A stretch of 62,177 nucleotides of DNA, from contig NW_014040488.1 in NCBI RefSeq assembly GCF_001186125.1, positions 63,609-125,785 on the forward strand, given 5' to 3'. The notes under the pieces are model-generated. The model was not told the DNA's origin. It worked only from the letters and a program-made list of their open reading frames with translations, and made no database searches. Shown piece after piece: positions 513 to 23,455 of this stretch (positions are counted from its first letter, which is position 1; the number at the start of each line of letters is the position of its first letter). A program made the translations under genes and the position numbers. The stretch is from Sphaeroforma arctica JP610. Its lineage: Eukaryota.

Positions 513-2020
513 TCAGTTATCTGCCTCATCCTTTGATCCATCGATCTGTTCAATGTTAATGAACGCTTCGGATGGGACAGCATCTTTTGTCGTCTTTGGG
601 ATAGCCGCTGGGGGCGAACTGTCTCCCGATGACGACAAGAATTTTCTAGCTTTCACCTGATCAGGTTTAGGCTCTTCGGTCGGTTTGTCCTTCTGAAATA
701 CCTCTGGAGCAATCTGTGGATTTCCTTCCGGTAATGGATTTGTATTAGGCTCCTGTTCAGATGCCATTCGCGACATTGCTGTTGCGTCCAATCCAGGAGA
801 GGGTTGAGTTTCGGGTGATGACGATCGGAGTCTGCTTGCCTCTCCATTGTCTGACAACATCTCGAACGCCAATATGGCTTGATAGAGTGCCAAATGGTTT
901 GATATCAAGTCGGGAAGATCTATAAGAAGATCCCGAATTGCGTACCAAATTAAGAATCCAAAACTTCCATATATCCTAGTTCCGAATACCTCCGGTAGTA
1001 TCTTTTGAAATTGACGGAAAAGTTTGCGTGCTTGCTTACCTTCGTCAGTTTTCATTAATTTTAGCCGATTGTAGTATTTAGTATCCCTAAACAAATCGCA
1101 CCCAAACTTTCTTACCGCTGCAATATCATTACATACCTCGGTGAGATGGTACCGTCTGGGTTGGTCTTCAATACGTCAGGAAAGTACTTTCCATACGTAT
1201 TTCGAAACACCCATGCCCTGTTGGCCCGCTGTCGGATTAAATCTCGTTGACCCTCCTCCTGACTATCAATCTGCGCCTGGTATGAATTGCCCAGATGAAA
1301 ATTCTGTCGCCAAGCCGGTCGGAGTGGTGTTTTGGGTATACGCAGGAATTGTGAGGCAATCTTGCTGTCCGAATCGTCGTCATGACGGTGAAATGTCTGG
1401 TCCACATCGTCCGGACCTATATCCACGAAACGCAGTTGTTCTTCCGATACGTTGATTTGGGGTTGATCCAACAGTGGTGTTGGCTCATCCTCCGAGTCAT
1501 CCTCCCCTGATTCATCACGACTTTGATCCTTCGCTGCGGCTTGCTTTTTCTTTCGCTGCTTAGTAGGTCTCAAATCATGTACCATTAGTTGGTAGTCTTT
1601 CAGAAAGGCTCTCCTATCCCTTGCTATCATGTGATAAGTAGGATTTCGCCCACGTGCTTTGCACGTATCCACTGGTGGATATGGTACATCTGATTCCAGT
1701 GCATGTCGCACTTCCTCTGAAGTTGAATTGTCTGAGGATTGCGTTTTCTCGGCCTTTCCCTTTCGAGATTTCGCCTTCTTGGCTGGTGGCTTCTGTGGCT
1801 CCGTAGTCACATTACCTCCGGATGCACATATACCCGAGTCAACCAACTTCTTACGTTTTTCATTAGTCAGAACTGGTACCGGTTGTCTGGACGTGAACTC
1901 AGTTACGTCAGAGTCCACTGATGATACCGGGGGTGTTTTCTACTTTCCATCGCCTACAGTAAACAAATTTACTTTTGCAGCCTTAGCTACATTCGCTGCC
2001 CTATTGTTTCCTTTCGTCAT
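513..2020 (-). pseudogene. Upstream low-complexity ORF (ORF0) of copy A, disrupted
   Basis: ATG at 2020 (MTKGNNRAA...), in-frame TAG at 1940-1942, ORF 1112-1918, a frameshift near 1112-1170, then ORF 513-1094. K/S/D/E/P-rich. Confidence 0.55.
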
Positions 2021-2052
2021 AATATCGATAGCGTATTATAAACTTAAAAATA

Positions 2053-2956
2053 TGTAAAAGTCGGTCTCCTCTAGGCTGACTATACGATACCAAGACGTTT
2101 GGGTAATAAGACAATACGTTAAAACGTTAAAACGCAAGATATTAAAAATAAGTTTAGCTTCAGCCCTTGGTAGTGAGCAAAAGATTAGGGGATTTTAGAC
2201 TGAGACTATTGTCTATATGCTCCACTCTAATCACTCACTACTTCGGTCTAGATTTTTTATAATTTAGTTACTAAGACTAGATATCATTTCATTGGACGCA
2301 TATTTTACATTTCACGCGTCGAAACAACTATCTACTCAAACTAACCAATAAAATATCTCTAAGTCCAACCTAAGAAAAATCAAAAATCAAATCAAAACAC
2401 CAAGCTGATGCAGTATACATCTGCACCTAAACCCCATCACTTGGTACCTAACTCCTCATCCCATTTAAGGCATAGACGGGCACATCTAGTTGGCTGGCAA
2501 TGAGGAATCAAAACCATGTTGTCCTAAATTCTAACAACTTTGATCCTGTCCTTTTCTCAGTGGATTATCCTGTTCTGAAATTACTATCGAATTATACCAT
2601 TGGTTTGTACCAACAACCATTTCATGCCTGAGACCCTCTCTCATGGTACTCCCGTTGATTAGAGATTCCCAAAGTGTCATTTTCAGGTGTCAGATTTGTA
2701 TCATTCCTAGGGTTTAGGGTTTCTACACCCTAAACCCTGAACCCTTATGTACGATTCTAATTTCAGTGGAAAAACCAATCTATATTTGGAAAACCACCTA
2801 ATTGTCTACAGTAGAATCCCTTACTCTACTGAGTACTATCACATGTTCAGAATCTTAAATATCTCAATTCTTGTTCATGTCCAATTCGTTAATACGTTTA
2901 TACGTTTATAATATACGTCAACTGTGCAACTACTATTAGGAACCCGCTATTTTACA
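2053..2956 (-). repeat. LTR (family 1, 5' LTR of copy A)
   Basis: TGTAAAA...TTTTACA termini; aligns by eye with 4599-5487 (inverted), 6994-7870 and 9559-10452. Confidence 0.92.
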
Positions 2957-3933
2957 TGTGGCTCCCTTGAATGAATACTGCTGTCCCTCACAAGTGAAGG
3001 TGAAATACTTCCGGTGTGGTTTGTATATCTTCATTTGGGGGTAGCCTTGCTTAAAATCGATGGTCGAAAATATCTTCGCTCCTTCCATTCTTCTCAGCAA
3101 TTTATTAATTCTCGTTAAGTGAAAGTTGTGTGTGGGTATAAGAGCTTTTATAGGACACATATCCAAATACACGCGAACCTTCTTTAACGTGGCATCGGAG
3201 TTGAACTGGTCTACAGCCAAGAGTGCCAGGTAGACAGGAGTAGGTTCGTAGTTGACTGCGATTACCCCGTCTTCCAAACATGCCTTAACTTGTTCTCGTA
3301 CCACCTGTTCGTGACGCCACGCTACATAATTTCGCGTTGAACATTTCAACTTCGAAAAGTCCATTTTTGTCAAATTTAAGCTCATGTATCCATTGTTGAA
3401 TTTGAACTGAGCCCAGTCGGTGATCTTTATCTTGTTATTCTCGAAATAAGATTCATTAGCTTCTCCGTGAATTGAGGTATCATCTCTTTCACAGTCTTAG
3501 AAGGCTTATATACAGATTTCAGCAGATTGTCATATGACTGATCCTTCTGTGGGTCTATGTTTGTTGGCAAACCGGTAATCGTTATACCTAACGATAGCAA
3601 ATCCCCCATCCCCACTATTCAATCATAGTCAGGCGAAGTGTTACAGACAACCGCTTTTGGAACCGTGGTCCTTTGATTTGTAAGGGTAAATCATAAATCG
3701 CTGGCCATGTCATGACACGTAATCTCCCTTTCGTCGGCTAATTTCAACATAGTAGGTTCTGATTTAAGAGCTATATCATTTATCTTACAGAATCTCGATG
3801 ATATACATAAAATTTGCGAGCCCGGATCCAATAACGTTTTTATTCCATGTCCATTAACTCGTACATCTAGAATGACGCGCTCATCTTTGGTGCATCCTTT
3901 TGTTTCAATGCCAAGATCCGGTAAGATTGTCAC
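2957..3933 (-). pseudogene. pol fragment: aspartic protease plus N-terminal reverse transcriptase
   Basis: TLLDPGSQILCIS; KKVRVYLD; GAKIFSTIDFKQGYPQMKI...YFTFT. Broken by stops and frameshifts and truncated by the LTR at 2956. Confidence 0.88.
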
Positions 3934-4583
3934 TTAACTTCTACCTTTAATTGCACCTTACACATGTGTTTGTGGTAACCTCCAGTCCCTGCACAGTCTG
4001 CACACTTCGCAATAAAATGTTTACATTTCTCTGCGTGCCTGCCATTCCAGCGTCCATTTGGCTCATGTTGGGTCATGTGCCAGCTGCAATCTGTCTCAGC
4101 ACAGTCCTTGGTCTCCTTATACTTTGGTTTAAGAGGTTCGGCTGCCTGATTAGATTTATTGCCCAAAGTCCCGCGAGTGTTGACATTGTTCTTTACCATC
4201 ACCATCTTGTGCATGCTTGTTCTTCTGGCCTTCTTTGTCTATACCTTTGTTCCCTTTGTTATTTCCTGTTCCCGTATGAGAGTGTAAAAATAACGGGTTC
4301 CTAATAGTGGTTGCACAGTTAACTTATATTATAACCGTATTAACGTATTAACGCTTTTACTAATAATCCTGGAATACGTTTAACGAAGTGAATATGAACA
4401 AGAAATGCGTAACTAAAACTTATAAAGGCTAAGCATACTTTGTCTAAGAGAATATAACATAAGCATTGAGGCCGTTATATGATCAAAACCCGTTTCTTTT
4501 CTTTTTCGCATGTACAATTCATGTGAGCTTTTTGAGTCTATGTACTGATACGTCATATAAGCCAACATTGTAATTTTCAAGCT

Positions 4584-4595
4584 GAGGGGGGGGGG
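4584..4595 (+). promoter_or_regulatory. Polypurine tract (plus-strand primer)
   Basis: GA followed by ten G, ending 3 nt before the LTR start at 4599; this fixes the LTR sense orientation. Confidence 0.85.
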
Positions 4596-4598
4596 CTA

Positions 4599-5487
4599 TG
4601 TAAAAATAGCGGGTTTCAAATAGTAGTTGCACAGTAAACGTATAAATGTATTAATGTTTATACTTATATTCCTGGGATACGTTTAACGAATTGAACATGA
4701 GCAAGAACTGCGTAGTTCAAAATTCTGAACATGTGGTAGTACACATTAGAGTACGGGACTCTACTGTGGACAATTAGGTGGCTTTCCAAATATAGATTGG
4801 TTTTTCCACTAAAATTAGAATTGTACATACTCTAGGAATGACACAAATCTGACACCTGAAAATGACACGTTGGGAATCTAAAATTATTGGGAGTACCGTG
4901 AGAGAGGGTCTCAGGCATGAAATGGTTGTTGGTACAAACCTATGGTATACTTCAATAATGATCTCAGAGCAAGATAATCCACTGAGAATAGGACAGGATC
5001 AGAGTTGTTATAATTTAGGACAACATGGTTTTGATTCCTCCTAGTCAGCCAACTAGATGTGCCCGTCTATGCCTTAAATGGGATGGGGAGCTAGGTACCA
5101 AGTGATGGGGTTTAGGTGCAGATGTATACTGTACCGACTTGGTGTTTTGATTTGATTTTGATTTTTTTCAGTTGGACTTAGAAGTATTTTATTGGTTAGT
5201 TTGATTGGGAGATTGTTTCGAGGCGTGAAATGCACACTATGCGTCGAATGAAATGATATCTAGTCTCAGTAACTAAAACATAAATAAATCTAGACCGAAG
5301 TAGTGAGTGATTAGAGTGGAGCATATAGACAATAGTCTCAGTCCAAAATCCCCTAATCTTTTGCTCATTACCAAGGGCTGAAGCTAAACTTATTTAACAT
5401 TTTGCATTTTAACGTTTTAACGTATTGTCTTATTGCCGTTAACGTCTTGGTATCTTATAGGCAGCCTAGAAGAGACCGACTTTTACA
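4599..5487 (+). repeat. LTR (family 1, 3' LTR)
   Basis: TGTAAAA...TTTTACA termini; reverse-complement homolog of 2053-2956. Confidence 0.92.
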
Positions 5488-6993
5488 GGCACCGTCTTCT
5501 TATTAGGCGGTATGAATTTCACCAAAGGATTCGGCGAACCAGAAAACGTCTGATCTGCTCTCGAGTAAAATTCAGTCCAAGTCAGGTCGGCGAGTTTCAT
5601 GATGCCGTAAGTTGGCCCTTCAATTGAAATCTCACGTACCTTTTCTGGGAAAGATTGATGCATGTCTACGTACAACACTTCCTGGTCTTTTCGGTGAAGA
5701 GCCGACCGAAAAATTGTTTGTACCCACAACACACATACTCAGTGTGTCTGGTGCCATTTCTTGTGTCTGAGCACGTGATATATGGGTGTCCAATTCCAAT
5801 AAGTAATGTGACACTGGCGTCCCTTCGTCCGGGGGTGCCGTTATAGATACCAGCAGTTCCGGCCCGGGGTCGATTGAAAATATATGAACTATCATCTCGC
5901 TCTGCTCCTTTCATGTCTGCAGATTTGTTACAGCAGCCTTTGCCTTCTTCAACTTATTATACTTATAAGATGATGGGTAAGCATGAATTGACCAAACTCT
6001 TTTAAAGATCTTGACAATAGCGTTAATTTACTCGTATCGATTGTATCCTTTTGATCTTTTCGAACTGGGCGATACGTGGTGGGTAACTTACCTATATCCT
6101 TGACAAATTTCTTACTGTCCACTGTCTTTTCGGTGTGTATGATGCGTAGCTCCGTGTCGATCTTGGATTGGAAATGCCTCGCCATTGTCATTCTCAAGCT
6201 GGCTTGCTCTATCTTCCTTTGATCCATTGCTAGCGTCGCCCCCTCTTCCGCGTGAGGGATCCGAGCTGTGAAATCAACAATCTTCGTGTCACTCTCCGAA
6301 ATCTCATCAACTGATGCGTCCGTCTCCCTCATACCATGCAGTCACGGATCATCTCCATCGTCCCTGTCATCCTTCTTGCTCTTCTTGCGCTTAGTCATCG
6401 TCGTCTCGTTGATGTCTTCGATCGCTTAGCAGACGGCGGCTGATTATCTGGTCCCGACGAGTCTGATTCTTCAAATTCTGGCGATGTTCGACTTTCGTCA
6501 CCGCTAGAACTCTTCGACTTCATTTCCACCGTGAATTTTCTTTTGCCGGTATTCTTCTGGTCCTTGTATTCCTTGAATGCGGCTGCCAGCTGGCGTAATT
6601 CGCGCATGTAATCGTCGGTAAATCTTCTCCCTCCGAGTTTGAATCCGGTTCTGATTCAGATTGTAGAGCCTCTTTACCTTTCGGCGTTGGGCTCTCCGAC
6701 TTTGATTCCGGTGGTTCCGGCTGGTCTTCCGCCGAACCCTTCTTTGGATTCCTTTTGCCTTTCTTCTCCTTTGGCTTCTTTGACTTCTTAGACTTGTGTG
6801 GTTTACACATCGTCACATCGTCAAAGATCTCTTTGGGTAGAGCATGTGCCATCATAATTGACACATCTTCAGCCGCTTGAGAATCGGGCTCGTAGGGGGG
6901 TTTGAGAGGACTGACCTTCGGTTGGCTCTTAAATGCCTTGGATTTTCCTTTACGTTTTGTCCTTCTCTCGATAGCGTTATAAACTTAAAGTTA

Positions 6994-7870
6994 TGTATAA
7001 GTCAGATTAACCAGGCTGACTATCGATGTCAATAAGTTAACGTAAAAGAAAGTACGATTTCAAAGTAAATTTGCATAATGTAATTTAAGTAGCTTCAGCC
7101 CTTGGTAATGAACCAAAGATTCGGGGATTTAAGACTGAGACTATTGTTGTCTTTATAGTTCCGCTCTAATCACTCAATACTTCGGTCTAGTTTTATTTAG
7201 TGTCAGTAACTAAGATCAGATTTCATTTCATTGGATGCATGATATTTCATTCCATTTCATTTTACGCTTCAAAACAATCTTCCAATCGCAATCACTCATA
7301 AAATAACTCTAAGTCCAACTTGAGAAAATGAAAAAGGTATCAAAAACACCAGGTTGGTACAGTTAAATGTCTGTACCTATACCCCATCACATGGTACCTA
7401 GCTCTCCATCCCATTGAAGGCATAGACGGGCACACCTAGTCGGCTGGCTAGGGGGAATCATTTTCATGCCCCATTTCTCAGTGGGCCATTTCGCGCTGCG
7501 AGTGTTCGGTAATATAACGTGTGTCATCAAGTGTCAAATTCACCTCAGACTCTCCCAACTATTATATTCCAATATTCTGGTGGAAAATATATCGTTATAG
7601 CAAAACCATCATGTCAATATCAACCGAGTCTCCAACCTCTGTTGTATACAATCATATTTTCAAATATCCCAAAATAGGTTATTTGTTTGTTTGTGTTCTG
7701 CAAATTTAATATATCTAAATTTAGATTATTCGATTATTATACAGATACAAATATCTACAATTGCGTTTCAACGTATACCAGGTTTTATAACCGTAATAGC
7801 GTTTAAACGTTAATACGTGTATAAGTACGTTTATCATGTGCTTCTACTATAGGAACCCGCTGATTTTACA
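6994..7870 (-). repeat. LTR (family 1, diverged subfamily; 5' LTR of copy B)
   Basis: TGTATAAG...TTTTACA termini. Homologous to the other copies except ~7460-7750, and has the same adjacent leader motif as copy A. Confidence 0.88.
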
Positions 7871-7981
7871 GAAGTACCATTTCTGATAGCTTGTTCAGCA
7901 CTTAAACTGTCTAAAAGAACAATCAATAACAACACTTAACACACAAAACAAATAACAAATATGTTATACATTTAAAATCGT

Positions 7982-10900
7982 TTATTCATCTAGTTGCTTT
8001 GCTTTCTTTACTCTTCTACTTGTTACCTTGGGCTTAACCTTATTTTGCGTTATACAATTGAGTCTGTTGTAACCACCTTTACACCCTGGTTCTGGACAAA
8101 GACTACATGGCTTCTTCACACTCTTACTCATCAATTCTATGGATGTATTTTGTTGGAAATCCTGTTGTAATTGCACAGGTTGTACAGGGTGTTGTAGTTG
8201 CACAGTCTGTCGTGGCTGTACAGGCTGTTGTTGTGAAGCCTCGCTTGATGTTGCTTTGTAGTCTGTTGCTGCTGCTGTTGCGGGTGGTGTTGCTGTTGTT
8301 GCGAGTTTTGTTGCTGTCCAGCTTGCTGTGCAGTTTTCGCCTGCTGCTGTACATTCCCCCGTTCCTATTGCATAACATTCTGCTGTTGCATAATTTGTTG
8401 CTGTTGCATGAGTTGTTGCAATTGCATAAATTGCTGTTGTATTATGATCTGTTGCTGCATGGCTTGCTGAGAACTAATCATGACTTCATTTGGACGCATG
8501 GTATGCATCATACCAGAATTTGTTGGTCGTTGTTTCCTGATCTGCGGCGGCAATTGCTGAGATATGCGAGGTTGAGCTTGTATATTTTTGAACACTGCAG
8601 TACTTGCAACAGTTTGCGTGAGACCGCCTGCAGTCTTAGCACTCTGAGCTAATCTTGGCATAGACTGCATATTAGGAACAAATTGACTGCTCGAGGATTG
8701 ATGTTGAGTACTAGTAGTACAGTTATCTTTATTACTACCATGGTGGATTTGGTATATTACCTCATCCTCTTCTTATTGTTCCGATACTTCGGTGCGAGCA
8801 GCATTACTATTGAGCTTAGAACTCAATTCGTCTAACCCCGGGTATTGCGCACGTGTCGCTGCCTCGTTTCGCTTCCTTTCCATTACGCCTCTAGCAGTTT
8901 CAAAGTGTGCCTCCACCTTCATTAAAATATCCTCATCGTTCACCTGTACATTCCATGGCTCCATCATAGCTTCATTCGTTAACCCTTGACCCATTAACTT
9001 CTGTTGGTAATTCTTGTACCTCTGCAACATATGCCCGATCGGGTGTGAGCTTCACATCCTTCAGTCTTTCTTCTAACTCTGAAAGTTGCGTCTAATCCAC
9101 AGTGTAGCGCATACTAGATATACCCGTTGTCTCTCCCGTATTCAAGAAGTTTGTTTTCGACTCCCATGGCACGCCATCAATACTATAAGTTTCACCTGTG
9201 AGATCTCCGTATGCTGATGCAATGGTGTCCTCCAATGCTAAATCGCGATGTCCACAGTCAGCCACCCCTCTTTTCTGTACACCAATTGTGTAGTTCCTTT
9301 GTGTTACGAATCTAGACAGAATCATGTCCCCTTGTTTACCACTCAACATGTAGCAGCCCGATCTTCTACTGAACTCCTGATGCCAAGCTCCCTCAACACC
9401 ACTAGTACCACGTCTTCATACAGTGTGAAGTACATTCTTTTCCCTGGGATCTGAATAACACCCCCTGCGGAAGCTTAGCAATATGCGTCTGGCTTGCTGA
9501 GATACACTTGTAGTGAAAAACCGCTCATTTTGAATACTAGTTGCACACATCGAGTGATTGTAAAAGTCGGTCTCCTCTAGGCTGACTATATGATACCATG
9601 ACGTTTACGTTATTAAAACAATACGTTAAAACGTTGGAATTCAAAATGTTAAATAAGTTTAGCTTCAGCCCTTGGTAGTGAGCAAAGAATAGGGGATTTT
9701 AGACTGCGACTATTGTCTATATGCTCCGCTCTAATCACTCACTACTAGGGTCTAGATTTATTTATGTTTTAGTTACCAAGACTAGATATCATTTTATTGG
9801 ACGCTTAGTTTACATTTCACGCCTCGAAACAATCACCTAATCACACTAACCAATAAAATAACTCTAAGTCCAACTTAAGAAAGAAAAACCCTAAAACAAA
9901 AAGAAAATCAAAACACCAAGCTGGTGCAGTATATATCCGCACCTAAACTCCATCACTTGGTACCTAGCTCCCCATCACATTTAAGGCATAGACTAGTTGG
10001 TTGGCTAGGAGGAATCAAAACCATGTTGTCCTAAATTCTAACAACTCTGATCCCCAGTGGATTCTCTTGCTCTGAGATCATTTTCGAATTATACCATAAG
10101 TTTGTACCAACAACCATTTCATGCCTGAGACCCTCTCTCATGGTACTCCCAATAATTAGAGATTCCCAAAGTGTCATGTTCAGGTGTCAGATTTGTGTCG
10201 GTCCTAGAGTATGTACAATTCTAATTTCAGTGGAAAACCCAAGCTATATTTGGAAAGCCACCTAATTGCCCACAGTAGAGTCCCATACTCTAATGTGTAC
10301 TGTCACATGTTTAAAATCTTGAATTACGCAGTTCTTGTCCATGTCCAATTCGTTAAACGTATTCCAGAATTATAAGTATAAGCGTTAGTACGGTATACGT
10401 TTGTAATATACGTTAACTGTGCAACTACTATGAGGAACCCGTTCTTTTTACATGATGATCACTGGATCGGGACATATACGTGAGACACGTGCTGTCAAGT
10501 ATGCTCGCCCACTCTTAGTCTTGTCATTCTGTAAAACAGATGAATTCTGTCGTGTAACTAGAACGTGATCCACTATCTGCGTTATAGCTGTATCGCGTAC
10601 ATACTTCGCATCCTTGAACAAACGCATGAAAGCTTGAAAGCAAGAGTGTTTTGTTTTAAGCGGTAGTAGCTTGAGGACATGGAATCCATCACCGAGCACC
10701 CTTCTGAAAGCTGGCATATCTTCTGGAAGGGCTGCACCACTCCCCAGCTCTATAGGCGATAGTATGTTGCCAATCTCAGCCTCGATGCCGTCCTGTCCCG
10801 TGCACGAGAATGATGTGCCTCCACATTACTACGTATACAATTGAAGTGTAGGACCTGGCTCTCCTAAGTTTAAACCAGTCTTCGTTCTGAGCCACCATCG

Positions 10901-11157: not shown

Positions 11158-12994
11158 TATATATATANNNNNNNNNNNNNNNNNNNNNNNNNNNNNNNNN
11201 NNNNNNNNNNNNNNNNNNNNNNNNNNNNNNNNNNNNNNNNNNNNNNNNNNNNNNNNNNNNNNNNNNNNNNNNNNNNNNNNNNNNNNNNNNNNNNNNNNNN
11301 NNNNNNNNNNNNNNNNNNNNNNNNNNNNNNNNNNNNNNNNNNNNNNNNNNNNNNNNNNNNNNNNNNNNNNNNNNNNNNNNNNNNNNNNNNNNNNNNNNNN
11401 NNNNNNNNNNNNNNNNNNNNNNNNNNNNNNNNNNNNNNNNNNNNNNNNNNNNNNNNNNNNNNNNNNNNNNNNNNNNNNNNNNNNNNNNNNNNNNNNNNNN
11501 NNNNNNNNNNNNNNNNNNNNNNNNNNNNNNNNNNNNNNNNNNNNNNNNNNNNNNNNNNNNNNNNNNNNNNNNNNNNNNNNNNNNNNNNNNNNNNNNNNNN
11601 NNNNNNNNNNNNNNNNNNNNNNNNNNNNNNNNNNNNNNNNNNNNNNNNNNNNNNNNNNNNNNNNNNNNNNNNNNNNNNNNNNNNNNNNNNNNNNNNNNNN
11701 NNNNNNNNNNNNNNNNNNNNNNNNNNNNNNNNNNNNNNNNNNNNNNNNNNNNNNNNNNNNNNNNNNNNNNNNNNNNNNNNNNNNNNNNNNNNNNNNNNNN
11801 NNNNNNNNNNNNNNNNNNNNNNNNNNNNNNNNNNNNNNNNNNNNNNNNNNNNNNNNNNNNNNNNNNNNNNNNNNNNCTGGGCGCACTGGCTGCAGCAGCA
11901 AGCCTTTCGCCAAACCTGGCTCCTCGGCAGAACCACACCTGGCCCATCCGTGGATGCAGGACACACTCGTGCAAACAACATCCTAGTCTGCGTGTCCACC
12001 ACCAGCAAGACCTTGGACTGTCCGTTATCACTGTCAAAGTCCATAAAGTCCATGCTTATCACGCGCATGGTCTCTTCTAGGCGCACTGGCAGCAGCAGCA
12101 AGCCTTTCGCCAAACCTGGCTCCTCGGCAACCGCCTGACACGCGTTGCAGCTTTTACGGACACGATACAACATCTCTTTCAAGCCGCCCCAACCCCATAG
12201 CCTGCGTACCAGATCATCCAGTCTCTTGGCACTGCTTGCGCAAACAGTACTTGCGTGTATCGAACGATATGCTCGAGGACATCACCCCTTCCACTTCCAC
12301 ACCAAGCACAGAACGCTTCAAGCGTCTCAACCGTTGTCGCAACAGCTTGTCTCCCAGCTCGTTTACTGGTGGCCCTTCCGTGTCATCCAGTGGCACACCA
12401 TCCGCAGGATCCTGCTCCAACTGGACTAACTCCTCTGTGGTGAGTGATTCCTCATACTCTCACGTGTGGTCCTCCACTGATGCGTCACTCTGTGTTTTAT
12501 CGATGTCCATCGCTTCCAAGACCGGATGGGTATCCACAACCACCGCTGCCTTGCGCTCACGACGCGTAAGCAACGCGGGAGTGTACATAGCACCGAGCGA
12601 TCCCCCACTCGTGCTCACCTCAGCTGTTGCCAGCCAAGTCTCTGCCATCGCACCCAGCGATCCCTCACTAGGGTTAGCAGATGCCCCTCTCAGCCATGCT
12701 TCGCATGTCTCAGGGACTCACTCAGAACACCCTTAGCCTCCCGCCAAGGCTGAGTGGTGAGCGCCAATGCACTGACCGCACTGACAGGGGTAGTTTCTAT
12801 ACCAGCTTCTTCCGCTGGCATACCCCTACGTACCGGTTTCCCACTCGGGTGCGCCACCGCCCCTATGACACAACTCTGTGTCATACAGGACGCTACGTCT
12901 TACTCACGTAGCACCGCCGCCGCAGCCAACTTCTCCCAAGCTGGCCGCTTAGCCTCCAACTCCGTCCAGAAGTCTCCTCGAAGCTTGTGGTCGC

Positions 12995-13258
12995 GGTAAG
13001 GACTCACATAGCACACCAGAGTAATGAACCCTGGCGCCTCCATTGGCTCATTCCCGTGCTTGAGAAATATCCCCTTCTTTGGTAAATAACCATAGGGTCT
13101 GCTGACAGCAGAGAAACCATTTCTTTGAACCAACGTGCTGCAGGCGCGTACGGGCAGACCATAGCCTTGTCACCGTAGCCTTGTCCCGAATCCTGGTAAC
13201 CACTTTACCGAGATCCGACCACTTCGGGGTGAATTACCAACGCGGTCCCATCCAGGTC
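12995..13258 (-). pseudogene. Dam-like N6-adenine methyltransferase domain remnant (C-terminal part) in the pol of element C
   Basis: Read across frameshifts: TPKWSDLGKVVTRIRDKATV / MVCPYAPAARWFKEMVSLLSADPMV / LPKKGIFLKHGNEPMEAPGFITLVCYV. Aligns with the domain at 22292-22797. Confidence 0.7.
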
Positions 13259-16200
13259 CTTAAAGCGAACAGTGGTAATCCAGTCGAGACTGCACATCCG
13301 CCACAGGATTCAACTCCCCTGGCACAGGCTTCAGGATGATATCAAAATCACGTAGCACCTGCGCATATCTTGCCATCCGCCTGCCTCTAACCGTTGACTC
13401 ATACGAGGTGAGGTCCTGTGCCAACATGCGCACCAGCGGTTCATGGTCCGTGAACACCGTTAACGGGTGTCTCGAACGCTTGACAATCCTCCACGACTTA
13501 TGGAGACAATACACGATTGCGAGGGCCTCCTCATCTGTGATGCGGTAGCCCAGTTGTGCTGGACTAAACTTCGAAGACCAGAATCCCACAGGGCACAGCT
13601 TACTCTTTCGCCGAGCAAACAAACCCCCACCTACTCCAACTGAGTCACAGGCATCGCAATACAGCTCCAGCTTATCTTCAAACCCTGGCTCGAGCAACAC
13701 CCCTCTCTTGGCTACCTCTTCCCGAATCCGATCATAGGCCGCCTGCTGCGTCCGACCCTACACAAAGGGGACTTCTTTCTTGCTCAGATTCGAGATAGGG
13801 GCCATGACCCTAGAGTAGTCAGGAACGTACTGGCTCCAGTAGCCAATCGTGGGATACCACGAGGCCAAGAGATCCTTATCCGTGGGCGGTGGCATGCACA
13901 GGATGGATTCAATCCGATCCTCACTGATGTACGAGCTATTCTCATCCACGCTCGCCCCAACGCGATAACCGGCCGATCTGAGAACCCAAAACAACACTTC
14001 TTGAGGTTCAATTTTGCATTGTGCTTTACACACGCCGCAATGAGCTTTTTAATGCTCGTCCAGTGCTCTCTAGCACTGTAGTGGCCTACACCCATGTCGT
14101 CAATATAAATCTTCAAGTCGTCCACGCTTTGGAAAGCATGCTCCATTCGCGCCTGCATGATCCACGATGCAGGGTTGATATCGAACGGCATGCCAACAAA
14201 CGTCCGCTTTCCCCACGGCGTCCAAAAGGTAAGCATATGCTGAGAACTCTCAGCAACCTTCTGTTGACAAAAACCCTGCCCAAGATCCACCATCGTGCAA
14301 TACCTCTTGCCCCGTACCGCCGACAGAAAATCTTGCTCCGTCGGTACTGGGTACGCTTCATACTTAAGCGTGGCGTTCAACTTCTTGTAGTTGATACAGC
14401 AACTCTAGTTATGAACAGATAAAGGAACTACGCCCGGATTCTTAAAGATCATGTGCGGCATGGCACAATAGCCCTTAGCCTCGGCCTCCGAGATTTCTCT
14501 TGTTACACCCTCATGGTCCCAGTTATCAACCTTTGTGTCCAACACTGAAGTGAATGTCGGATCATTGTTCAGGTACACATTGTAGGACGGCTTTTCCCCA
14601 TCCTTCAGGTGAAACTCCACGCCGTTCCTGAAGCGAATGTCATCATACACCATAAAGATGCGTGTTGCTGCATTATACGCAACTGACTGAATGGCTGAGA
14701 TCATCTCATCGAATTCCTTCTTCGGGAGCCCACACTTCTTGTGCAACTTCCGAAGCTGAGACTGATCAAAGTCAACATATGCCTTCGGGTCCACTTCTTT
14801 CGTCGGCGAGATGGTTGTCGCGCCAATGGGCATGTCGACCTCCGCTAACAAGTCGTTCAACCGCGGCAGGAAATATTCGTCCGCATCATCCAGCTCCGCC
14901 GCAGTAGCCAAGTACTCCACCCTCTTCTGCACCTTAAGGAAGTATGCTTTCATGGACGCAACATAATTGCGCCTCTCCTGTTCCTTGAACTCGTTCCTAT
15001 GGATAGCCTGCAACCTCAGCCGGCTCCTAATAGTATCCAAGCGTAGCTCTTGCGATATCACGTCCGAGAGCTTGCGTTGCTTGTTGTTGACCTCCGTCCT
15101 CCTTGCCTTTGCTCGCTTTGCCCGCTTTCTCCGCGGGCCCGACATGGGTGGCAGCTCATTCTCAAGAGCCTCCGTAGTAAGGAAGTCAATGACCGCAGTT
15201 TGAGGTACCACCGTCAGAAAATCATGCTTCGTCCACATAAGGGCCAGATGGTCCTTTCGCGTGGACTGAAATCCTAACAGAATATCCGTGTCAAATGGCA
15301 GAGAGTCCCCCACCAGCAAATCCATTGGTCTCTCAATGGTATTGCCACCCCATGTATCGATTGTCACTTTAGATTTAACCACACCAGATGGGCGTACAAG
15401 CCCCATCTCAGCCATCCCTTTGTAAGGTGGACCTAAATATCGAGCCGTTTTTAAACCTTGTTGCGCCGCAAAGAATTTGGTGACCAAGCTCGGTGTAGCC
15501 CCCGAGTCGACATAGACCTCTACATCCTCACCAGCAACAGCACCCTAAATGACACTTCCAGCTTGCGTTTTCTCCTGCACCACAGTGCCCAGAGCGCCCG
15601 CAAGTCACTGCTGTGTCTCTGGGCAGGACTTGCGAAAGTGTCCACGCTGCTTACAGTTGAAAACAGCGAATCACCTTGTGGTAGACCTCCCGAGCTGCCC
15701 GGATGTCGTCATCCTCCGAGAGCTCAATCCCTGGCTCTACCGATGCCACTCTTGGGCGTTCCTGACCGCCCTTGCCCTTATCCGCCCCTTTGTTCTTGGG
15801 ATTGGGCTGACGACTACGCTTGAGCAGGTTGCGTATATCCTTCTTCTGTCCCGCCAAATCCTTCTGCTGCCCAGCCATGCTGGCACGTAAATCATTAACG
15901 GCCGCCAACGTAGCCCCTAACTCGTATCTGTCCCCCCCTTGACCCGCTGAGGAGGCCACAGGAGCTCTCGGCGGTGGAGCAACATCTCCTTGCGCATTCT
16001 GCACCATCACCGGCGCAGACGAAAGCCCCTTAATGTGATATACCAACCTAACGTTATCTCCTAAGGCCTTGTCATGCACAAACAAGCGCTCAAAGAAGAG
16101 ATCCATACCTTCGTGTATGGCCGTCATCGATTCGGAGACCGCCTTGCCATAAATAGGTTACATTCGTATCAACTCGAGGAAAAACGTGGCGTGAGGGCTC

Positions 16201-17498: not shown

Positions 17499-18086
17499 NT
17501 AATATATATANNNNNNNNNNNNNNNNNNNNNNNNNNNNNNNNNNNNNNNNNNNNNNNNNNNNNNNNNNNNNNNNNNNNNNNNNNNNNNNNNNNNNNNNNN
17601 NNNNNNNNNNNNNNNNNNNNNNNNNNNNNNNNNNNNNNNNNNNNNNNNNNNNNNNNNNNNNNNNNNNNNNNNNNNNNNNNNNNNNNNNNNNNNNNNNNNN
17701 NNNNNNNNNNNNNNNNNNNNNNNNNNNNNNNNNNNNNNNNNNNNNNNNNNNNNNNNNNNNNNNNNNNNNNNNNNNNNNNNNNNNNNNNNNNNNNNNNNNN
17801 NNNNNNNNNNNNNNNNNNNNNNNNNNNNNNNNNNNNNNNNNNNNNNNNNNNNNNNNNNNNNNNNNNNNNNNNNNNNNNNNNNNNNNNNNNNNNNNNNNNN
17901 NNNNNNNNNNNNNNNNNNNNNNNNNNNNNNNNNNNNNNNNNNNNNNNNNNNNNNNNNNNNNNNNNNNNNNNNNNNNNNNNNNNNNNNNNNNNNNNNNNNN
18001 NNNNNNNNNNNNNNNNNNNNNNNNNNNNNNNNNNNNNNNNNNNNNNNNNNNNNNNNNNNTATATATAATATATATATATATATATA

Positions 18087-21000
18087 GATGACTCTAATAT
18101 CAGGAATATTTGGATCCTAATCCCAGTACTCAATATTTGATGATTCTGAGGTTTTGGGATTTGGATTGGATTTCTGATAATCTGGTCCCTAGATGCTACA
18201 GAAGGAGCAAAAAACAGTGAGTTCTGACATATACAAAATGCTGTATAAATCAGAAGTAAGACACGCAGACATAGGAGCATCGGCACATGTCAATTCAACA
18301 ATGATAAGAAGGAATCAAAACACAAAACAACAGACATGCAGACAAGTAAAAATATACCACTACAAAACCAATAGGTGTACAACAAAGACAAGGAAACATG
18401 GCTGAAGAAATGATCAGACAAGGCAAATAGAAAGTTAATCAAGCATATCTAAATCCATACATGGCCAAAACACACAAAAGCATATACTACTTCTTAACTT
18501 CATACATGGTTAAAACACACACAAGAATAAACTACAAAAAATAATAAACGACTGATGTCTAAACTTCTTAGATAGCAAAAATAGGCAAAGTAATAAATCA
18601 GATGTGAGTGAAATATGCAACTAAATACAAACATGAGATCGGACACACGCAAACGGAAGTATAAAACCCTAAAACTCGCAACTGGCATGTACAAAGCACG
18701 TACATATTCAGCGTGACAAAAACAAAGAAGGACGCAAACAAGTATATAAATACAAGTACGTGAAGGCGCACATGTCATGAGTAAAAAAGTATTGTAGAAA
18801 TTTACAAGCTTTTAGCTGGAAGATGCACAAGCAAGAGGTGACACACACCGTTATGTAAACTTGCACGTTCAAAGCACAAACATCTTCAACAAAACAAAAA
18901 CGCAGAGTGACACAAACAGGTATACAAACACAATTACTGCTTCATGTCATTAGCAAAGAAGCATTCTATAAATATACACACATTTAGCTAGAGAAAATAA
19001 GGCATATCATCTGCTATACTTCAAACGCAAAATATGACACATATAGTGAAGCAAACAAAACGAAAACTTCATAGCACACTTCACATTGAAGCCTAATACA
19101 AATGAGACAAGCAATCACAAAACAATGACACAAGAATACAAGAAGTAAATCGGAACAATCCATTCCACACGATAGATACATAGCAGGTAAAAACAACTAA
19201 ACAATTCACAAAGACAAACGAGACACACCGCACGCGATTTAGAAATACGCGCGAACACACAAGACATCGGTGTACACACAAACTTCGTACACGCACTGTT
19301 CCATATACGAGGTCAGTACGATTACAAACATAAAGGTCCAGTACTCAGAAATCAGAATTAATAAAAAAATTCTGTCATCAGAAGAAATTAGAACCTTCCC
19401 AATACCCAGAATTTTACACAGTTTCTAGATGTTCGGAACTCGAACACGAGACAAAAATTAAAATCAAACCAATAAACATCAATCCAAATTTGACAGAACG
19501 ATAAAGAAGGTTCACACCAAAAACTTAATTTACAACGAATAATCCAACATAAACCAAAGTTTATCACCTCAAACTAAAAATCCTCCAAATAAGCCCAGGT
19601 ACCTCGGAGACGGACAGTTCAAGCCAATGAGCTGCACTCAACACCGTCACCGAACACCACGCAGGAGACACACATCGATGTAATCAATCGAATTTGACTC
19701 AAAATGTGTATCAGTAAAGAACTGAACCAATTAATGTTGACAAATAACAAATGAATTCTAGAAACACAATAAATTTTCAACACACAGAACAGTCAATGAC
19801 TTCTGCGCCTTACCAAAGGACAAGAGCAGCACGAATGAGTCTACGCACACAAGTGAGCTCAAGTCGCACACACACAAAATGAAGTGCAAGTCGTACAATC
19901 AGAAATCGGCCGGAACAACCACACACGATACCAGTATCACAGACACACACAAACGACTACACTCCGAACAATGGAGCGGCGATGCAGCTGGATGACCAGT
20001 CCACACCAGGAAGAGCACCACTAGACCTAGTATTGAGTAAGTTCAAAGTGTCCATTGACAAGAACATATACGAGGGCAACGCATAGATCATTGGTGTATT
20101 AGTGGACAGACTGTACGCACAGAAGACGGACAAACGCATTGACATTATTGATCAAACTTACAAATAAAGTTCACAACCATCAACCTAACAGATTGATATC
20201 AGAAGTAGATTAATTGTTGTCAGAGTTATACAATAAAGCTACGTAGAAGTGTGATAAAAGTGATCACGATGAGTGTATTGGGATCAGTGGCTATATGAGC
20301 GAGTTAACACTAACTAGATCTCATGAAGGGGATAAAATCTCAGACCCAGAGTCAACAGGCTTGATGGGCGGAAGCTAACATTGTAAGCATGGTAGACATT
20401 GTGAATCTACACACTGATGAAGAAACGTTGTTAATAAATGCAAATGAAATTGCTTACACAGCCTATTCTTTAGTTCCCAATCCACGAGACAAAAAATTGC
20501 ACATAAACGTACAAATCAATGACACGACACACAACGCACTGGTAGATTCAGGAGCACAACTCTCATGCAAGGATCGCAGTGTTGTGACTGAAATATACTT
20601 GTCAGTCAACCGGCTATATACAGCTAGCACAATCTGATGCACGAGTACAGCGTTCAGGCTCAACAGAAGTATGTGATGTAAACTACGGCGGTAGAAAAAT
20701 GTCAAAATGTTTTGAGGTACTCGACCTCCCCAACAAGAAGTCACCAATACTTTTAGGTATGGATACGTTGTTTGAGCATATATTTAGCAGGGATAAATAG
20801 TACATTTATACCAACGAATGCAAAATGGGAATCACTTCTTACATCCGAAAATGGTTATCGGACTTATTCGACCAAAATGGCATGATCTCACCTGATGTAT
20901 ATTAAAGGTCAGTAGTGGAGATACCAATACAAGAAGTCAAAGTCAAAAACAACAGACATGCTGAATAAACTTTGTTCCAGACCAGTGCATACCATAAACA

Positions 21001-23455
21001 GATGACAATGTTTAAAAGTGGGTAAAGGATGGGCGCATATACAAGAGAACGACATGTGAACTTGAAACAAAAAGGCCTAATAAAGAAAGTACACACTTGT
21101 ACAGACTTAAGAGAAACCAACTATCAACATGAACAAGACAAATTCGTAATACCGAAAATAAAAGTACTTCACAACCTACAAGGTGCACAATTTTTTTCTT
21201 CCAAATTGGACTTGACAGGAGGATTCCATCATTTTCGTGTACTCGAAAAAAGCCATCACTTCTTCACCTTTTCATGGAGTGGAGCATAAAACTCATTTAA
21301 GTCAGCACCATTTGGACTACACTCGCGTCAGCACAATTTCAAAAAGTAATAGCAAACCTTCTCATTGGCATTAAAGGTGTACAAGTATAAGTAGATGACA
21401 TAGTCGTCGCGAGCCTTACAGAAGAGGAACACAGAAAGACCGTACGAGAAGTCATCCAAAGACGGATTTCTGCCAACTTCAGGCTACAACACAACAAATG
21501 TGCGTTTGCAGTCAAAACAGCAACATTCTAGGCGTCAAGCTACAACACAGGGGCTTGAAACAGAGCCAGAGAAACAAAAACGCATGATAGACTGGACTGG
21601 ACCTTGCCTCGAACCAAAAGAGAGCAGTCGGACTAACAAAGCTACACGCGGGACCACATACCCCACTTTGCGTATATAACGAAACACTTCCGTAATCTTA
21701 TGGAAGGGAAAATGAACCAGAACATAGCAAATATTTGAACACCTGAACACATTAAGAAATGGGAAGAAGTCAAGACGCTATCGCTTGTTCAGTAACATTA
21801 GTTTACCCCGTAAACGGTGTTCCGCTACAAATCATGAATGACGCAAGTGCTTATGGTATAAGAGGCTGCCTATTTCAAATCATTAACGGGTGTTAGACGA
21901 GATATACTCTTTTTGTCAGAAGGCTTAAATTCCGAACAACAAAGATATGGGACGAATAAGAAAGAGATACTAGCGCTAGTGTACAGCCTAGAACAGGTTT
22001 CGAAGTACATCAAAGGAGGCGACAAAATGCCGTGGACAGATCACAAAGCGCTGTGCCAGATGAATCAGCAACAAACGCTGCATCCCATGTTAGCAAAGTA
22101 GATAGCAGAATTATTCTACCACCACTTTACAATCATACATATGCCAGACAAAGACGTCCAACTCGCCGACATGCTTTCACGATTGCATGAAGATACCTTC
22201 AACTTCAAAACATCAAATGTATTGAAGGGAGCTAACAAGAACACACAAACAATGGTCAAGAATACACTGACCTTAAAAAAACATGCCCATACCTTTATCT
22301 GCCATAGACCGAAAACTACATCCACAATTCCACAAAGAAGCGAAACGAAAGTTTAAGAAATTCACCATCGACTTGTTTGCAGCAGCACACAAGACAGAAA
22401 AGCTCTACACCAAAGAACAGAATGCACTACTTCAAAAGTGAGCAGATGATTTAAACGCATGGGCAAATCCTCCATGAAAACTCTTCCTCGACGTTCTTGA
22501 CAAAGTCATAGAAGAAGCCACTAGCATCACAGCATGGGTAAATCCTCTATGGAAACTCATCCTCGACGTTCTTGAGAAAGTCATAAAAGAAGCCACTAGC
22601 ATCACAATATTTGTACCCTATTACCGAAATGTAACGTGACTCCCCAAATTCTTGTCACTACTAGAACAAGACCCGATGATAGTCGAAAACACGAACAACA
22701 GATTTCTCAAAGGCGGCACAACAGCTTGCGACAAAGCGCCGTGGGGGGTCACACTAGTAGCCTGGATAGGCACAAAGTCACCATACATCAGAAACTAGTA
22801 CATCCAGCCAAAAAGATCGCGTCGGTACAAATCGAGGACGAGTCGGCATAGCTAAACACAGTCAAGTATGAGGACATGGCTCACCTATTAGCACAATACC
22901 ACACTGTGGGCCAGTACACGGTTGAAGAAACGGTACATAAGCAAACTTCAATTCCAGTACATTGAAGGCTATGTACCACTACTTAATAACAAAATTCACA
23001 ACGAGAGCTTCCACCCCTTACAATCGATAAGAGCCACATCTCCAGGCGATAAGATACAAGTGAATATCATCGGTCCCTAAATAGAACCAAATAGAGGTAA
23101 AACATACGTCCTAGTTTGGCTCGATGTACACTTATCAATATGCCATACTCAGACCAATGATGAACAAATCAGAGGCCACTGTCTCACGAACACTAGTCCC
23201 AATTATATGTGAACATGGCTTTCCACAAGTCATACAAACGGACCAAGGCGCAGAATATGTGGATGACTTTCTCACGAAAAATATCGAGCAAGCCCCGTCA
23301 CAACATCTAGTGTCCAGACCATATCAACCCAAGGTAATGGGAGCAAATGAGCGATCAACTAGAGACTTCATACACTTGCTGAGGGAATTACAACCTGGCA
23401 CAATAGTACCATGGGAAACGCGACTGAAGAATTTTGAGAGACTACAGGAGTAGAC
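18087..23455 (+). mobile_element. Highly degenerate Ty3/Gypsy element D (family 3): PR-RT-RNaseH-MTase-integrase
   Basis: ALVDSGAQLSC (~20540); LDLTGGFHHF and V*VDD (21200-21400); NDASAYG, EILAL, TDHKAL, ADMLSR (21830-22185); IQTDQGAEY and GANERS (23124-23453). The 5' boundary and a possible LTR at ~18087-19380 are tentative. Confidence 0.85.
22292..22797 (+). pseudogene. Dam-like N6-adenine DNA methyltransferase domain in the pol of element D
   Basis: One frame reads KFTIDLFAAAH..KLYTKEQNALLQK*ADDLNAWANPP*KL..VLEKV..ITIFVPYYRNVT*LPKFLSLLEQDPM..FLKGG..APWGVTLVAWIG. The three TGA stops sit where Trp is expected. Confidence 0.85.

What the first reader, a model, noticed from the sequence alone, without database searches (positions are those of the whole stretch)
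22292..22797. Dam-like N6-adenine DNA methyltransferase domain inside the pol of an integrase-encoding Gypsy retrotransposon
Seen: between RNase H (ADMLSR, ~22165) and integrase (~22850 onward), one reading frame broken up by stops in the ORF track gives IDLFA (22367-22381, SAM-binding motif), Y...NAL..[W], WANPP[W] (22460-22477, the N/D-P-P-aromatic catalytic motif of amino-MTases), VLEKV, IFVPY..[W] and a terminal PW..LV.W. Established: a phage-Dam-like MT domain follows RNase H in DIRS tyrosine-recombinase retroelements, whereas canonical Ty3/Gypsy pol is PR-RT-RH-INT with no MTase. Inference: a Gypsy lineage able to mark its own cDNA or insertion site with 6mA (or 4mC), perhaps mimicking active chromatin or evading host defence. 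This copy is dead, and I cannot confirm novelty without a literature search.
Basis: partly seen in the sequence, partly recalled or inferred. Interest (0 to 1): 0.9.

Follow-up and report, generated by a model that had tools for sequence, protein, structure and literature searches.

The report
Decayed methyltransferase-carrying Gypsy retrotransposon in Sphaeroforma
A broken copy of a repeated gypsy-type jumping gene in Sphaeroforma arctica, a single-celled relative of animals, carries an adenine-methyltransferase-like domain between RNase H and integrase that in intact copies likely marks the element's own new DNA copies, but this design, in this species, was already described in a May 2026 preprint.

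Summary
Window 22301-22786 (+) is a Pfam Dam (PF05869) domain with three stops and a 75-bp tandem duplication, lying between RNase H and a DDE integrase. It is not a stray DIRS piece. Three intact polyproteins carry RT-RH-MTase-INT in one frame, the domain is about as conserved as RT, and the RT groups away from DIRS. The host is Sphaeroforma arctica. bioRxiv 10.64898/2026.05.21.726589 already defines an 'Ichthyosporean DAM-LTR lineage' in this species, reports 6mA enrichment on its copies, and found no activity in E. coli. So the kind, lineage and host are known.

Two refinements. The nearest solved fold is the RNA cap methyltransferase PCIF1/CAPAM (Z 9.2), ahead of E. coli Dam (6.5) and T4 Dam (6.2), so the substrate is open. 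Some intact relatives end in a weak chromodomain-like segment, although the preprint says the lineage lacks one.

Best mechanism (about 50%): the domain methylates reverse-transcription products so that host AMT1 keeps new copies marked. In passing: two Copia polyproteins also carry the domain.

The parts
20377..23426 (+). Decayed Ty3/Gypsy pol (PR-RT-RH-MTase-INT) with many stops and frameshifts; 3' part of integrase and everything after it missing; 5' end and LTRs not defined
   Evidence: tblastn of intact relative P0002 residues 3-1040 is collinear over this span in 7 pieces. Summed contig depth is many times flank depth from at least 19800 and falls to flank level by 23622.
20490..20790 (+). 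Aspartic protease region (approximate bounds)
   Evidence: Inferred from P0002 residues 43-145 (Pfam gag-asp_proteas) mapped by tblastn; LVDSGAQ motif in frame
21065..21700 (+). Reverse transcriptase, broken (approximate bounds)
   Evidence: tblastn; a single-frame piece groups with P0002/P0003 at 97* in the RT tree
21740..22190 (+). RNase H, ending in ADMLSR at 22165-22182 (approximate start)
22301..22786 (+). N6-adenine amino-methyltransferase-like domain (Pfam Dam PF05869; nearest solved fold PCIF1/CAPAM); motif I DLFA 22370-22381; motif IV NPP 22466-22474; three in-frame stops
   Evidence: Pfam E 1.2e-6; family profile i-E 1.4e-26 and 1.1e-36 for the two halves; 74% identity outside gaps to S. 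arctica SARC_09892; fold of that relative
22457..22606 (+). 75-bp tandem duplication (two copies, 92% identical) over the catalytic-motif region; the second copy reads WVNPL; absent from intact relatives
22880..23426 (+). DDE integrase (zinc-finger region and rve core), broken and cut short at the 3' end (approximate start)
   Evidence: tblastn; Pfam rve E 6.9e-5 on 23115-23450; H2C2 and rve in P0002-P0004

Best explanation
This is a decayed copy of a multi-copy Ty3/Gypsy retrotransposon family of Sphaeroforma arctica whose polyprotein has an N6-adenine methyltransferase-fold domain between RNase H and integrase, and in intact copies that domain likely methylates adenines in the element's own reverse-transcription products. 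Shown here: the domain, its place in one reading frame in intact relatives, its conservation with motif NPPW, its fold, and the host. Inferred: the domain travels with RT-RNase H into the particle, because it is fused just after RNase H as in DIRS, and has no target-recognition domain of its own, so the polyprotein would deliver it to the RNA:DNA hybrid or new cDNA. The seeded 6mA would then be maintained by host AMT1 after integration and keep young copies in transcription-friendly chromatin; this last step is the preprint's model. This particular copy cannot do any of this. Confidence in the identity is about 0.97; the number given is for the mechanism.
For: Intact polyproteins P0002, P0003 and P0004 carry RT, RH, Dam (E 2.4e-14, 4.4e-15, 2e-12) and rve in that order in one frame. 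14 of the best 150 representatives have the order RT-RH-DAM-INT. P0002 vs P0004 identity is 60% in the MTase, 63% in RT, 68% in RH and 67% in INT, against 43%, 13% and 12% in three linkers, which points to selection on the domain. [NDS]PP[FWY] is intact in 19 of 21 covered close relatives, the window's own row left out. A model of S. arctica relative P0007 has pLDDT 93 and matches N6-adenine methyltransferases. The preprint (whole main text read) reports more 6mA-methylated insertions and higher expression for DAM-LTRs than for other LTRs in S. arctica and A. whisleri, and AMT1 in 9 of 13 DAM-LTR species.
Against: The preprint's expression of these domains in dam-minus E. coli gave no rise in 6mA. 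The nearest solved fold is the RNA enzyme PCIF1/CAPAM, Z 9.2, against 6.5 for E. coli Dam and 6.2 for T4 Dam. Iyer et al. (PMC4738411, passages) put DIRS MTases in the PCIF1 clade and judged them likely inactive. DIRS keep the domain in hosts without AMT1. The 6mA enrichment is a correlation that active transcription alone could produce. A second Gypsy remnant in the window seems to keep only the C-terminal half, with no catalytic motif. One contig in each of three runs skips 22316-22957 (what lies between is not known).
Confidence: 0.5

Rival explanations
1. The domain is a PCIF1-related RNA methyltransferase. It would put N6-methyl on adenosine in the element's own genomic RNA (cap-adjacent or internal), or in the RNA strand of the hybrid, to stabilise or disguise the transcript. 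The 6mA seen on DNA copies would be host AMT1 following transcription.
For: The first five Foldseek rows and the only VIA row at Z>=8 among 48,161 chains are PCIF1/CAPAM. Pfam PCIF1_WW matches 21 of 72 family members at E<=1, best 8.3e-5. CAPAM uses an NPPF catalytic loop (PMC8287941 passages). Iyer et al. place DIRS MTases in the PCIF1 clade. An RNA substrate would explain the negative E. coli DNA assay.
Against: The element has neither the WW nor the helical domain that CAPAM uses to bind capped RNA (domain about 140 aa). Pfam Dam matches 69 of 72 members, far more strongly. Phage loci also match the family profile (14 loci), and the preprint derives the eukaryotic clade from prokaryotes. 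A shared fold shows no function.
Confidence: 0.22
2. The domain is catalytically silent or dispensable. It would be kept as a nucleic-acid-binding or structural module next to RNase H, carried over from a DIRS donor.
For: Negative E. coli assay. Iyer et al. call DIRS copies likely inactive. The second family in the window shows only the C-terminal half. 14 of 60 DIRS-like rows and 2 of 6 more distant LTR rows deviate from [NDS]PP[FWY]. Earlier scan notes on other genomes report motif-less versions (not checked here).
Against: In close relatives both motifs are kept: motif IV in 19 of 21 and DxFA in 15 of 18, window row left out. The same proteins differ by 40% elsewhere in the domain.
Confidence: 0.24
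3. The segment is a secondary insertion of a DIRS fragment into an ordinary Gypsy copy, or a chance motif match.
For: DIRS RT-RH-MTase ORFs carry the same domain with the same motifs (loci L002-L006). In this copy the frames of RH and MTase differ.
Against: Three intact in-frame polyproteins exist. The segment is 66% identical outside gaps to P0002 and 74% to S. arctica proteins. Many contigs of the same organism cover it at depths similar to RH and INT. The RT lies on the integrase-bearing side of a 100* split from 33 DIRS-like rows. Shuffle control 81.6 vs 8.2 bits.
Confidence: 0.02

Closest known systems
Ichthyosporean DAM-LTR lineage (Fernandez-Moreno et al., bioRxiv 10.64898/2026.05.21.726589, 22 May 2026; whole main text read, figures and supplements not seen)
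   Same: Ty3/Gypsy pol with a PF05869-type domain and an Asn-Pro-Pro pocket; host Sphaeroforma arctica is one of the three named species; nearest named relatives are S. arctica and Abeoforma whisleri proteins; RT groups with A. whisleri P0011 at 95*.
   Different: The text says the lineage lacks chromodomains, but some intact relatives here have a sub-threshold chromodomain-like tail. The text does not state the RH-INT position for this lineage (its Fig. 2b, not seen, may). This copy is dead and has a private 75-bp duplication.
DIRS1-type tyrosine-recombinase retrotransposon MT domain
   Same: Same domain directly after RNase H with the same motifs (L003: RVT_1, RNase H, Dam E 1.3e-8).
   Different: Here the domain is followed by a DDE integrase, there is a protease, and the RT is Ty3-like (best PDB match Ty3 Gag-Pol, E 7.4e-60).
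PCIF1/CAPAM cap-specific m6Am RNA methyltransferase
   Same: Nearest solved fold (Z 9.2, rmsd 3.1 A over 118 residues); NPP-aromatic loop; placed in one clade with DIRS MTases by Iyer et al..
   Different: No WW or helical domain; 13-17% identity; embedded in a retroelement polyprotein; substrate untested.
E. coli Dam / T4 Dam (classic GATC methyltransferases)
   Same: Rossmann amino-methyltransferase core (Z 6.5 and 6.2).
   Different: No inserted target-recognition domain; NPPW motif; weaker structural match than PCIF1; no activity in E. coli in the preprint.

Membership tests
Ty3/Gypsy LTR retrotransposon | pol order PR-RT-RH-INT with DDE integrase | tested here: met
   P0002/P0003 Pfam order PR, RVT_1, RT_RNaseH, (Dam), H2C2, rve; window collinear
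Ty3/Gypsy LTR retrotransposon | Ty3-type reverse transcriptase | tested here: met
   Best PDB sequence match Ty3 Gag-Pol E 7.4e-60; RT tree separates it from 33 DIRS-like rows at 100* (the tree held no DAM-less Gypsy references)
Ty3/Gypsy LTR retrotransposon | long terminal repeats and gag | tested here: inconclusive
   No direct repeat pair around this copy; an assembly gap at 17511-18059 lies upstream and the 3' end is cut; no whole genome was held; gag not identified
Ichthyosporean DAM-LTR lineage (bioRxiv 2026.05.21.726589) | PF05869 DAM domain with Asn-Pro-Pro-aromatic pocket inside a Ty3/Gypsy pol | tested here: met
Ichthyosporean DAM-LTR lineage (bioRxiv 2026.05.21.726589) | host among Pirum, Abeoforma, Sphaeroforma arctica | tested here: met
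   Host eIF2D exon 100% identical over 74 aa to S. arctica JP610 SARC_01711
Ichthyosporean DAM-LTR lineage (bioRxiv 2026.05.21.726589) | one clade with S. arctica and A. whisleri elements | tested here: met
   RT tree: 95* group of 14 rows holds the window piece and A. whisleri P0011. DAM tree: 99* with three S. arctica rows, but the link to the A. whisleri group is unresolved.
Ichthyosporean DAM-LTR lineage (bioRxiv 2026.05.21.726589) | lacks chromodomain | tested here: inconclusive
   No Chromo hit reaches Pfam's cut-off, so the statement holds at the preprint's threshold. Sub-threshold hits exist: P0003 E 0.015, P0004 0.0042, P0161 0.0011; none for P0002 or P0158 at E<=0.1. Atlas 0.91 to Chromo clusters for the P0002 tail. 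This copy does not reach the region.
Ichthyosporean DAM-LTR lineage (bioRxiv 2026.05.21.726589) | 6mA enrichment and raised expression of insertions | not testable with these tools
   No modified-base data; no listed holder on record as RNA
DIRS (tyrosine recombinase) retrotransposon | tyrosine recombinase instead of DDE integrase; no protease; DIRS-type RT | tested here: not met
   rve, H2C2 and protease present, no phage-integrase family in P0002-P0004; RT outside the DIRS-like side
Classic Dam (E. coli/T4) | target-recognition domain inserted in the catalytic core | tested here: not met
   The whole domain is about 140 aa; only 92-95 residues of the 128-residue model align, spread over about 240 residues of T4 and E. 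coli Dam
Classic Dam (E. coli/T4) | methylates adenine in double-stranded DNA | not testable with these tools
   The preprint's E. coli test of eukaryotic DAMs was negative
PCIF1/CAPAM | catalytic fold with NPP-aromatic loop | tested here: met
PCIF1/CAPAM | WW domain and helical cap-binding domain | tested here: not met
   The domain is flanked directly by RNase H and integrase; resemblance only, not membership

The most novel reading that the evidence does not exclude
The retroelement 'Dam' is really a stripped-down PCIF1-type enzyme that the Gypsy polyprotein aims at its own RNA or RNA:DNA hybrid inside the particle, making it a transposon-encoded RNA N6-adenosine writer rather than a DNA Dam. 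The ichthyosporean family pairs it with a divergent, cage-less chromodomain, and the same module has also jumped into Copia elements.
Probability: 0.22. Interest if true: 0.65.

Novelty: already known. Interest (0 to 1): 0.2.

Why it matters
If the domain seeds 6mA on new copies, a transposon writes the host's 'active gene' mark on itself to escape silencing. That idea is already in print for this species, and this dead copy adds no test of it. What this work adds is a sharper experiment. The nearest solved fold is an RNA cap methyltransferase and the only assay so far, on E. coli genomic DNA, failed, so RNA and RNA:DNA hybrid substrates should be tried. It also gives three intact polyprotein ids (P0002-P0004), a possible overlooked chromodomain, and Copia carriers of the domain that the preprint's main text does not mention.

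Tried and rejected
Whole-genome search for intact copies: no genome was held, so intact members came from protein collections, and no dN/dS could be computed.
LTR search by self-BLAST: none for this copy.
First fold, from a 3-sequence alignment: pLDDT 50, discarded.
Sequence-profile search of PDB for the MTase: only a weak PCIF1 hit, E 1.5.
Expression: no RNA holder listed, and only contigs were laid, so nothing follows about transcription. Contig depth is not a copy number.
DIRS origin of the domain: the DAM tree (111 rows, 142 columns, quick LG+G4) left 49 of 108 forks open, misplaced one short phage row, and does not nest the LTR rows in DIRS. The rows were chosen by closeness to this family, so the direction of transfer is not shown here. 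Left out of that tree: context-less fragments except eight named ones, P0024, and rows under 85 aa.
Metagenome scan: one RT-RH piece of the family and five DIRS-like loci, 6 of 150 pattern matches. Viral scan: 14 of 132 matches, all partial.
The PCIF1 match ranks only among solved structures; no library of predicted cellular structures was on hand.
Earlier scan notes: nothing by sequence or in this genome.
Rejected: chance match, secondary DIRS insertion, membership in classic Dam or PCIF1 proper, and novelty of the architecture. 4mC: no evidence either way.

Full report
Observation. A 75-bp tandem duplication (22457-22606, 92%) repeats the catalytic-motif region. With stops read as X, Pfam Dam PF05869 is the only family reported (E 1.2e-6, 28.7 bits, cut-off 28.1). 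A profile from 59 DIRS-like domains gives 81.6 bits against at most 8.2 for 1000 shuffles (rows found with this family's profile, so not fully independent).

Is it part of the element? In this copy RNase H, linker and MTase are in different frames, so relatives must decide. A search among long proteins found P0002 (1 of 494 candidates), and a search with its MTase region added P0003 and P0004 (3 of 94). P0002 and P0003 read protease, RT, RNase H, Dam, H2C2, rve in one frame; P0004 is the same from RT on. P0002 residues 3-1040 are collinear with window 20377-23426. The duplication shows as a 25-residue gap against P0002, and each stop faces a conserved Trp. Between P0002 and P0004 the MTase is 60% identical, RT 63%, RNase H 68% and integrase 67%, while three linkers are 43%, 13% and 12%. 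Contigs of public runs of the same organism pile up over the MTase as over RNase H and integrase: summed depth 825-2019 against 63 on the flank in run X2, with 333 of 541 laid contigs under 90% alike. This shows a diverged multi-copy family, though depth is not a copy number. One contig in each of three runs skips 22316-22957, which may be a deleted or diverged copy. A profile search of 1.84 billion representatives gave 4,637 hits at E<=0.001; 14 of the best 150 have RT-RH-DAM-INT, and most of the rest are DIRS-like or fragments.

Class and host. The best PDB sequence match of P0002 is Ty3 Gag-Pol (E 7.4e-60). In an RT tree of 56 rows, all 16 RT-RH-DAM-INT rows and the window pieces lie on one side of a 100* split from 33 DIRS-like rows. 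The window piece sits with P0002/P0003 (97*) in a 95* group that includes an Abeoforma whisleri protein (no DAM-less Gypsy references were in it). Of 20 proteins looked up, five bore organism names: three Sphaeroforma arctica JP610 and two A. whisleri. The window's MTase is 74% identical outside gaps to SARC_09892 and groups with the S. arctica rows at 99* in the DAM tree, whose base is unresolved. An exon of the host eIF2D gene in the window is 100% identical to S. arctica SARC_01711 (1 of 114 candidates). No LTRs could be found for this copy.

Prior art. The first literature search returned bioRxiv 10.64898/2026.05.21.726589, whose main text I read in full (figures and supplements not seen). 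It claims the first identification of DAM domains in non-DIRS LTR elements and defines five lineages. One is an ichthyosporean lineage in Pirum gemmata, A. whisleri and S. arctica with Ty3/Gypsy organisation. It reports 6mA enrichment and higher expression of these insertions in S. arctica, AMT1 in 9 of 13 DAM-LTR species, and no 6mA gain on expression in dam-minus E. coli. It proposes methylation of RNA-DNA intermediates followed by AMT1 maintenance. Six earlier notes of this scan on other genomes reached the same preprint (not checked). Morozov et al. (PMC6338049, passages) list DAM domains for DIRS. PMC5890265 was seen only in search listings.

What kind of enzyme? A model of S. arctica P0007 from a 72-row alignment has pLDDT 93 (a 3-row attempt failed). 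Foldseek ranks PCIF1/CAPAM in the first five rows (best E 4.7e-4) and E. coli Dam 25th. The wide search gives CAPAM Z 9.2 (rmsd 3.1, 118 aligned), the only one of 48,161 chains at Z>=8, then DIMT1 7.3, E. coli Dam 6.5, T4 Dam 6.2 and M.TaqI 5.9. Pfam PCIF1_WW weakly matches 21 of 72 members and Dam 69 of 72. Iyer et al. (PMC4738411, passages) had placed DIRS MTases in the PCIF1 clade and thought them inactive. In this family the motif is intact in 19 of 21 covered close relatives, and in 46 of 60 DIRS-like rows. CAPAM needs a helical domain to hold capped RNA (PMC8287941, passages), which the element lacks. So the fold is certain, the label 'Dam' is loose, and the substrate is open.

Mechanism. 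I commit to methylation of the element's own reverse-transcription products, then host AMT1 maintenance (0.5). The domain's place, conservation, motif and fold are shown. Packaging with RT-RNase H, the substrate and the hand-over to AMT1 are inferred, the last from the preprint. Rivals are a pseudo-enzyme or binding module (0.24), a PCIF1-like RNA writer (0.22) and a secondary insertion (0.02, refuted).

One disagreement with the preprint. It says this lineage lacks chromodomains. The P0002 tail (1200-1270) scores 0.91 to Chromo clusters in the Atlas (175 shared features; 26 of 30 hits). Pfam Chromo gives sub-threshold hits on P0003, P0004 and P0161 but none on P0002 or P0158. A profile from four clear chromodomains scores 6 of 17 tested polyproteins above 8 bits (P0004 21.0, A. 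whisleri P0011 22.1) against 2.5 for the best of 340 shuffles, but P0002 and P0003 only 1.4 and 3.8. By eye the aligned tails keep the central Trp but mostly lack the other two cage aromatics, as group II chromodomains do (PMC3350952, passages). This is a lead, and the window's copy ends before that region.

Verdict. A real, correctly spotted feature, but a dead copy of a lineage already described in this very species. Novelty: already known. Interest 0.2.

Noticed in passing
window 11877-16157 (-), remnant at 13049-13165: A second, very divergent Ty3/Gypsy element (RT and RNase H 23-25% identical to P0002) also has a DAM-like remnant between RNase H and integrase (i-E 1.4e-5 to the family profile; 22.6 bits to the DIRS-only profile). 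Only the C-terminal half is there, about 115 bases after RNase H, without motifs I and IV. It is multi-copy, and no listed contig shows the missing half, so the family may carry a shortened, motif-less domain.
   Followed up: partly
proteins P0080 and P0104: Two Copia-type polyproteins (RVT_2, Retrotran_gag_2) carry the same Dam domain with DVFA and NPPW intact (E 1.3e-8, 7.4e-11), before the protease in P0080 and after it in P0104. The preprint's main text has no 'copia' and one paper search (Copia, retrotransposon, Dam methyltransferase, DIRS) found 0 papers. Its supplements were not seen, and the hosts are unknown.
   Followed up: partly
P0002 1207-1258, P0004 935-985, P0011 1345-1395: Chromodomain-like C-terminal tail in intact ichthyosporean DAM-LTR polyproteins, below Pfam's cut-off and uneven across members; the preprint says the lineage lacks chromodomains.
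   Followed up: partly
proteins P0027 and P0037: Gypsy-like polyproteins with an Exo_endo_phos domain followed by Dam upstream of RT: a third position for the domain.
   Followed up: no
window 2960-3894 (-): Protease-RT piece of a third family from the same DAM-LTR clade (65% identical to P0015); it ends before RNase H and the MTase.
   Followed up: partly
window 54866-59355 (-): Host eIF2D (ligatin) gene in repeat-rich introns; Pre-PUA and WH_eIF2D exons; one exon identical to S. arctica SARC_01711.
   Followed up: yes
window 2012-10454: Several 400-950 bp copies of one repeat in both orientations, 74-86% identical (2053-2957, 4598-5487, 6955-7460, 9559-10454), possibly LTRs or solo LTRs of another element.
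   Followed up: no
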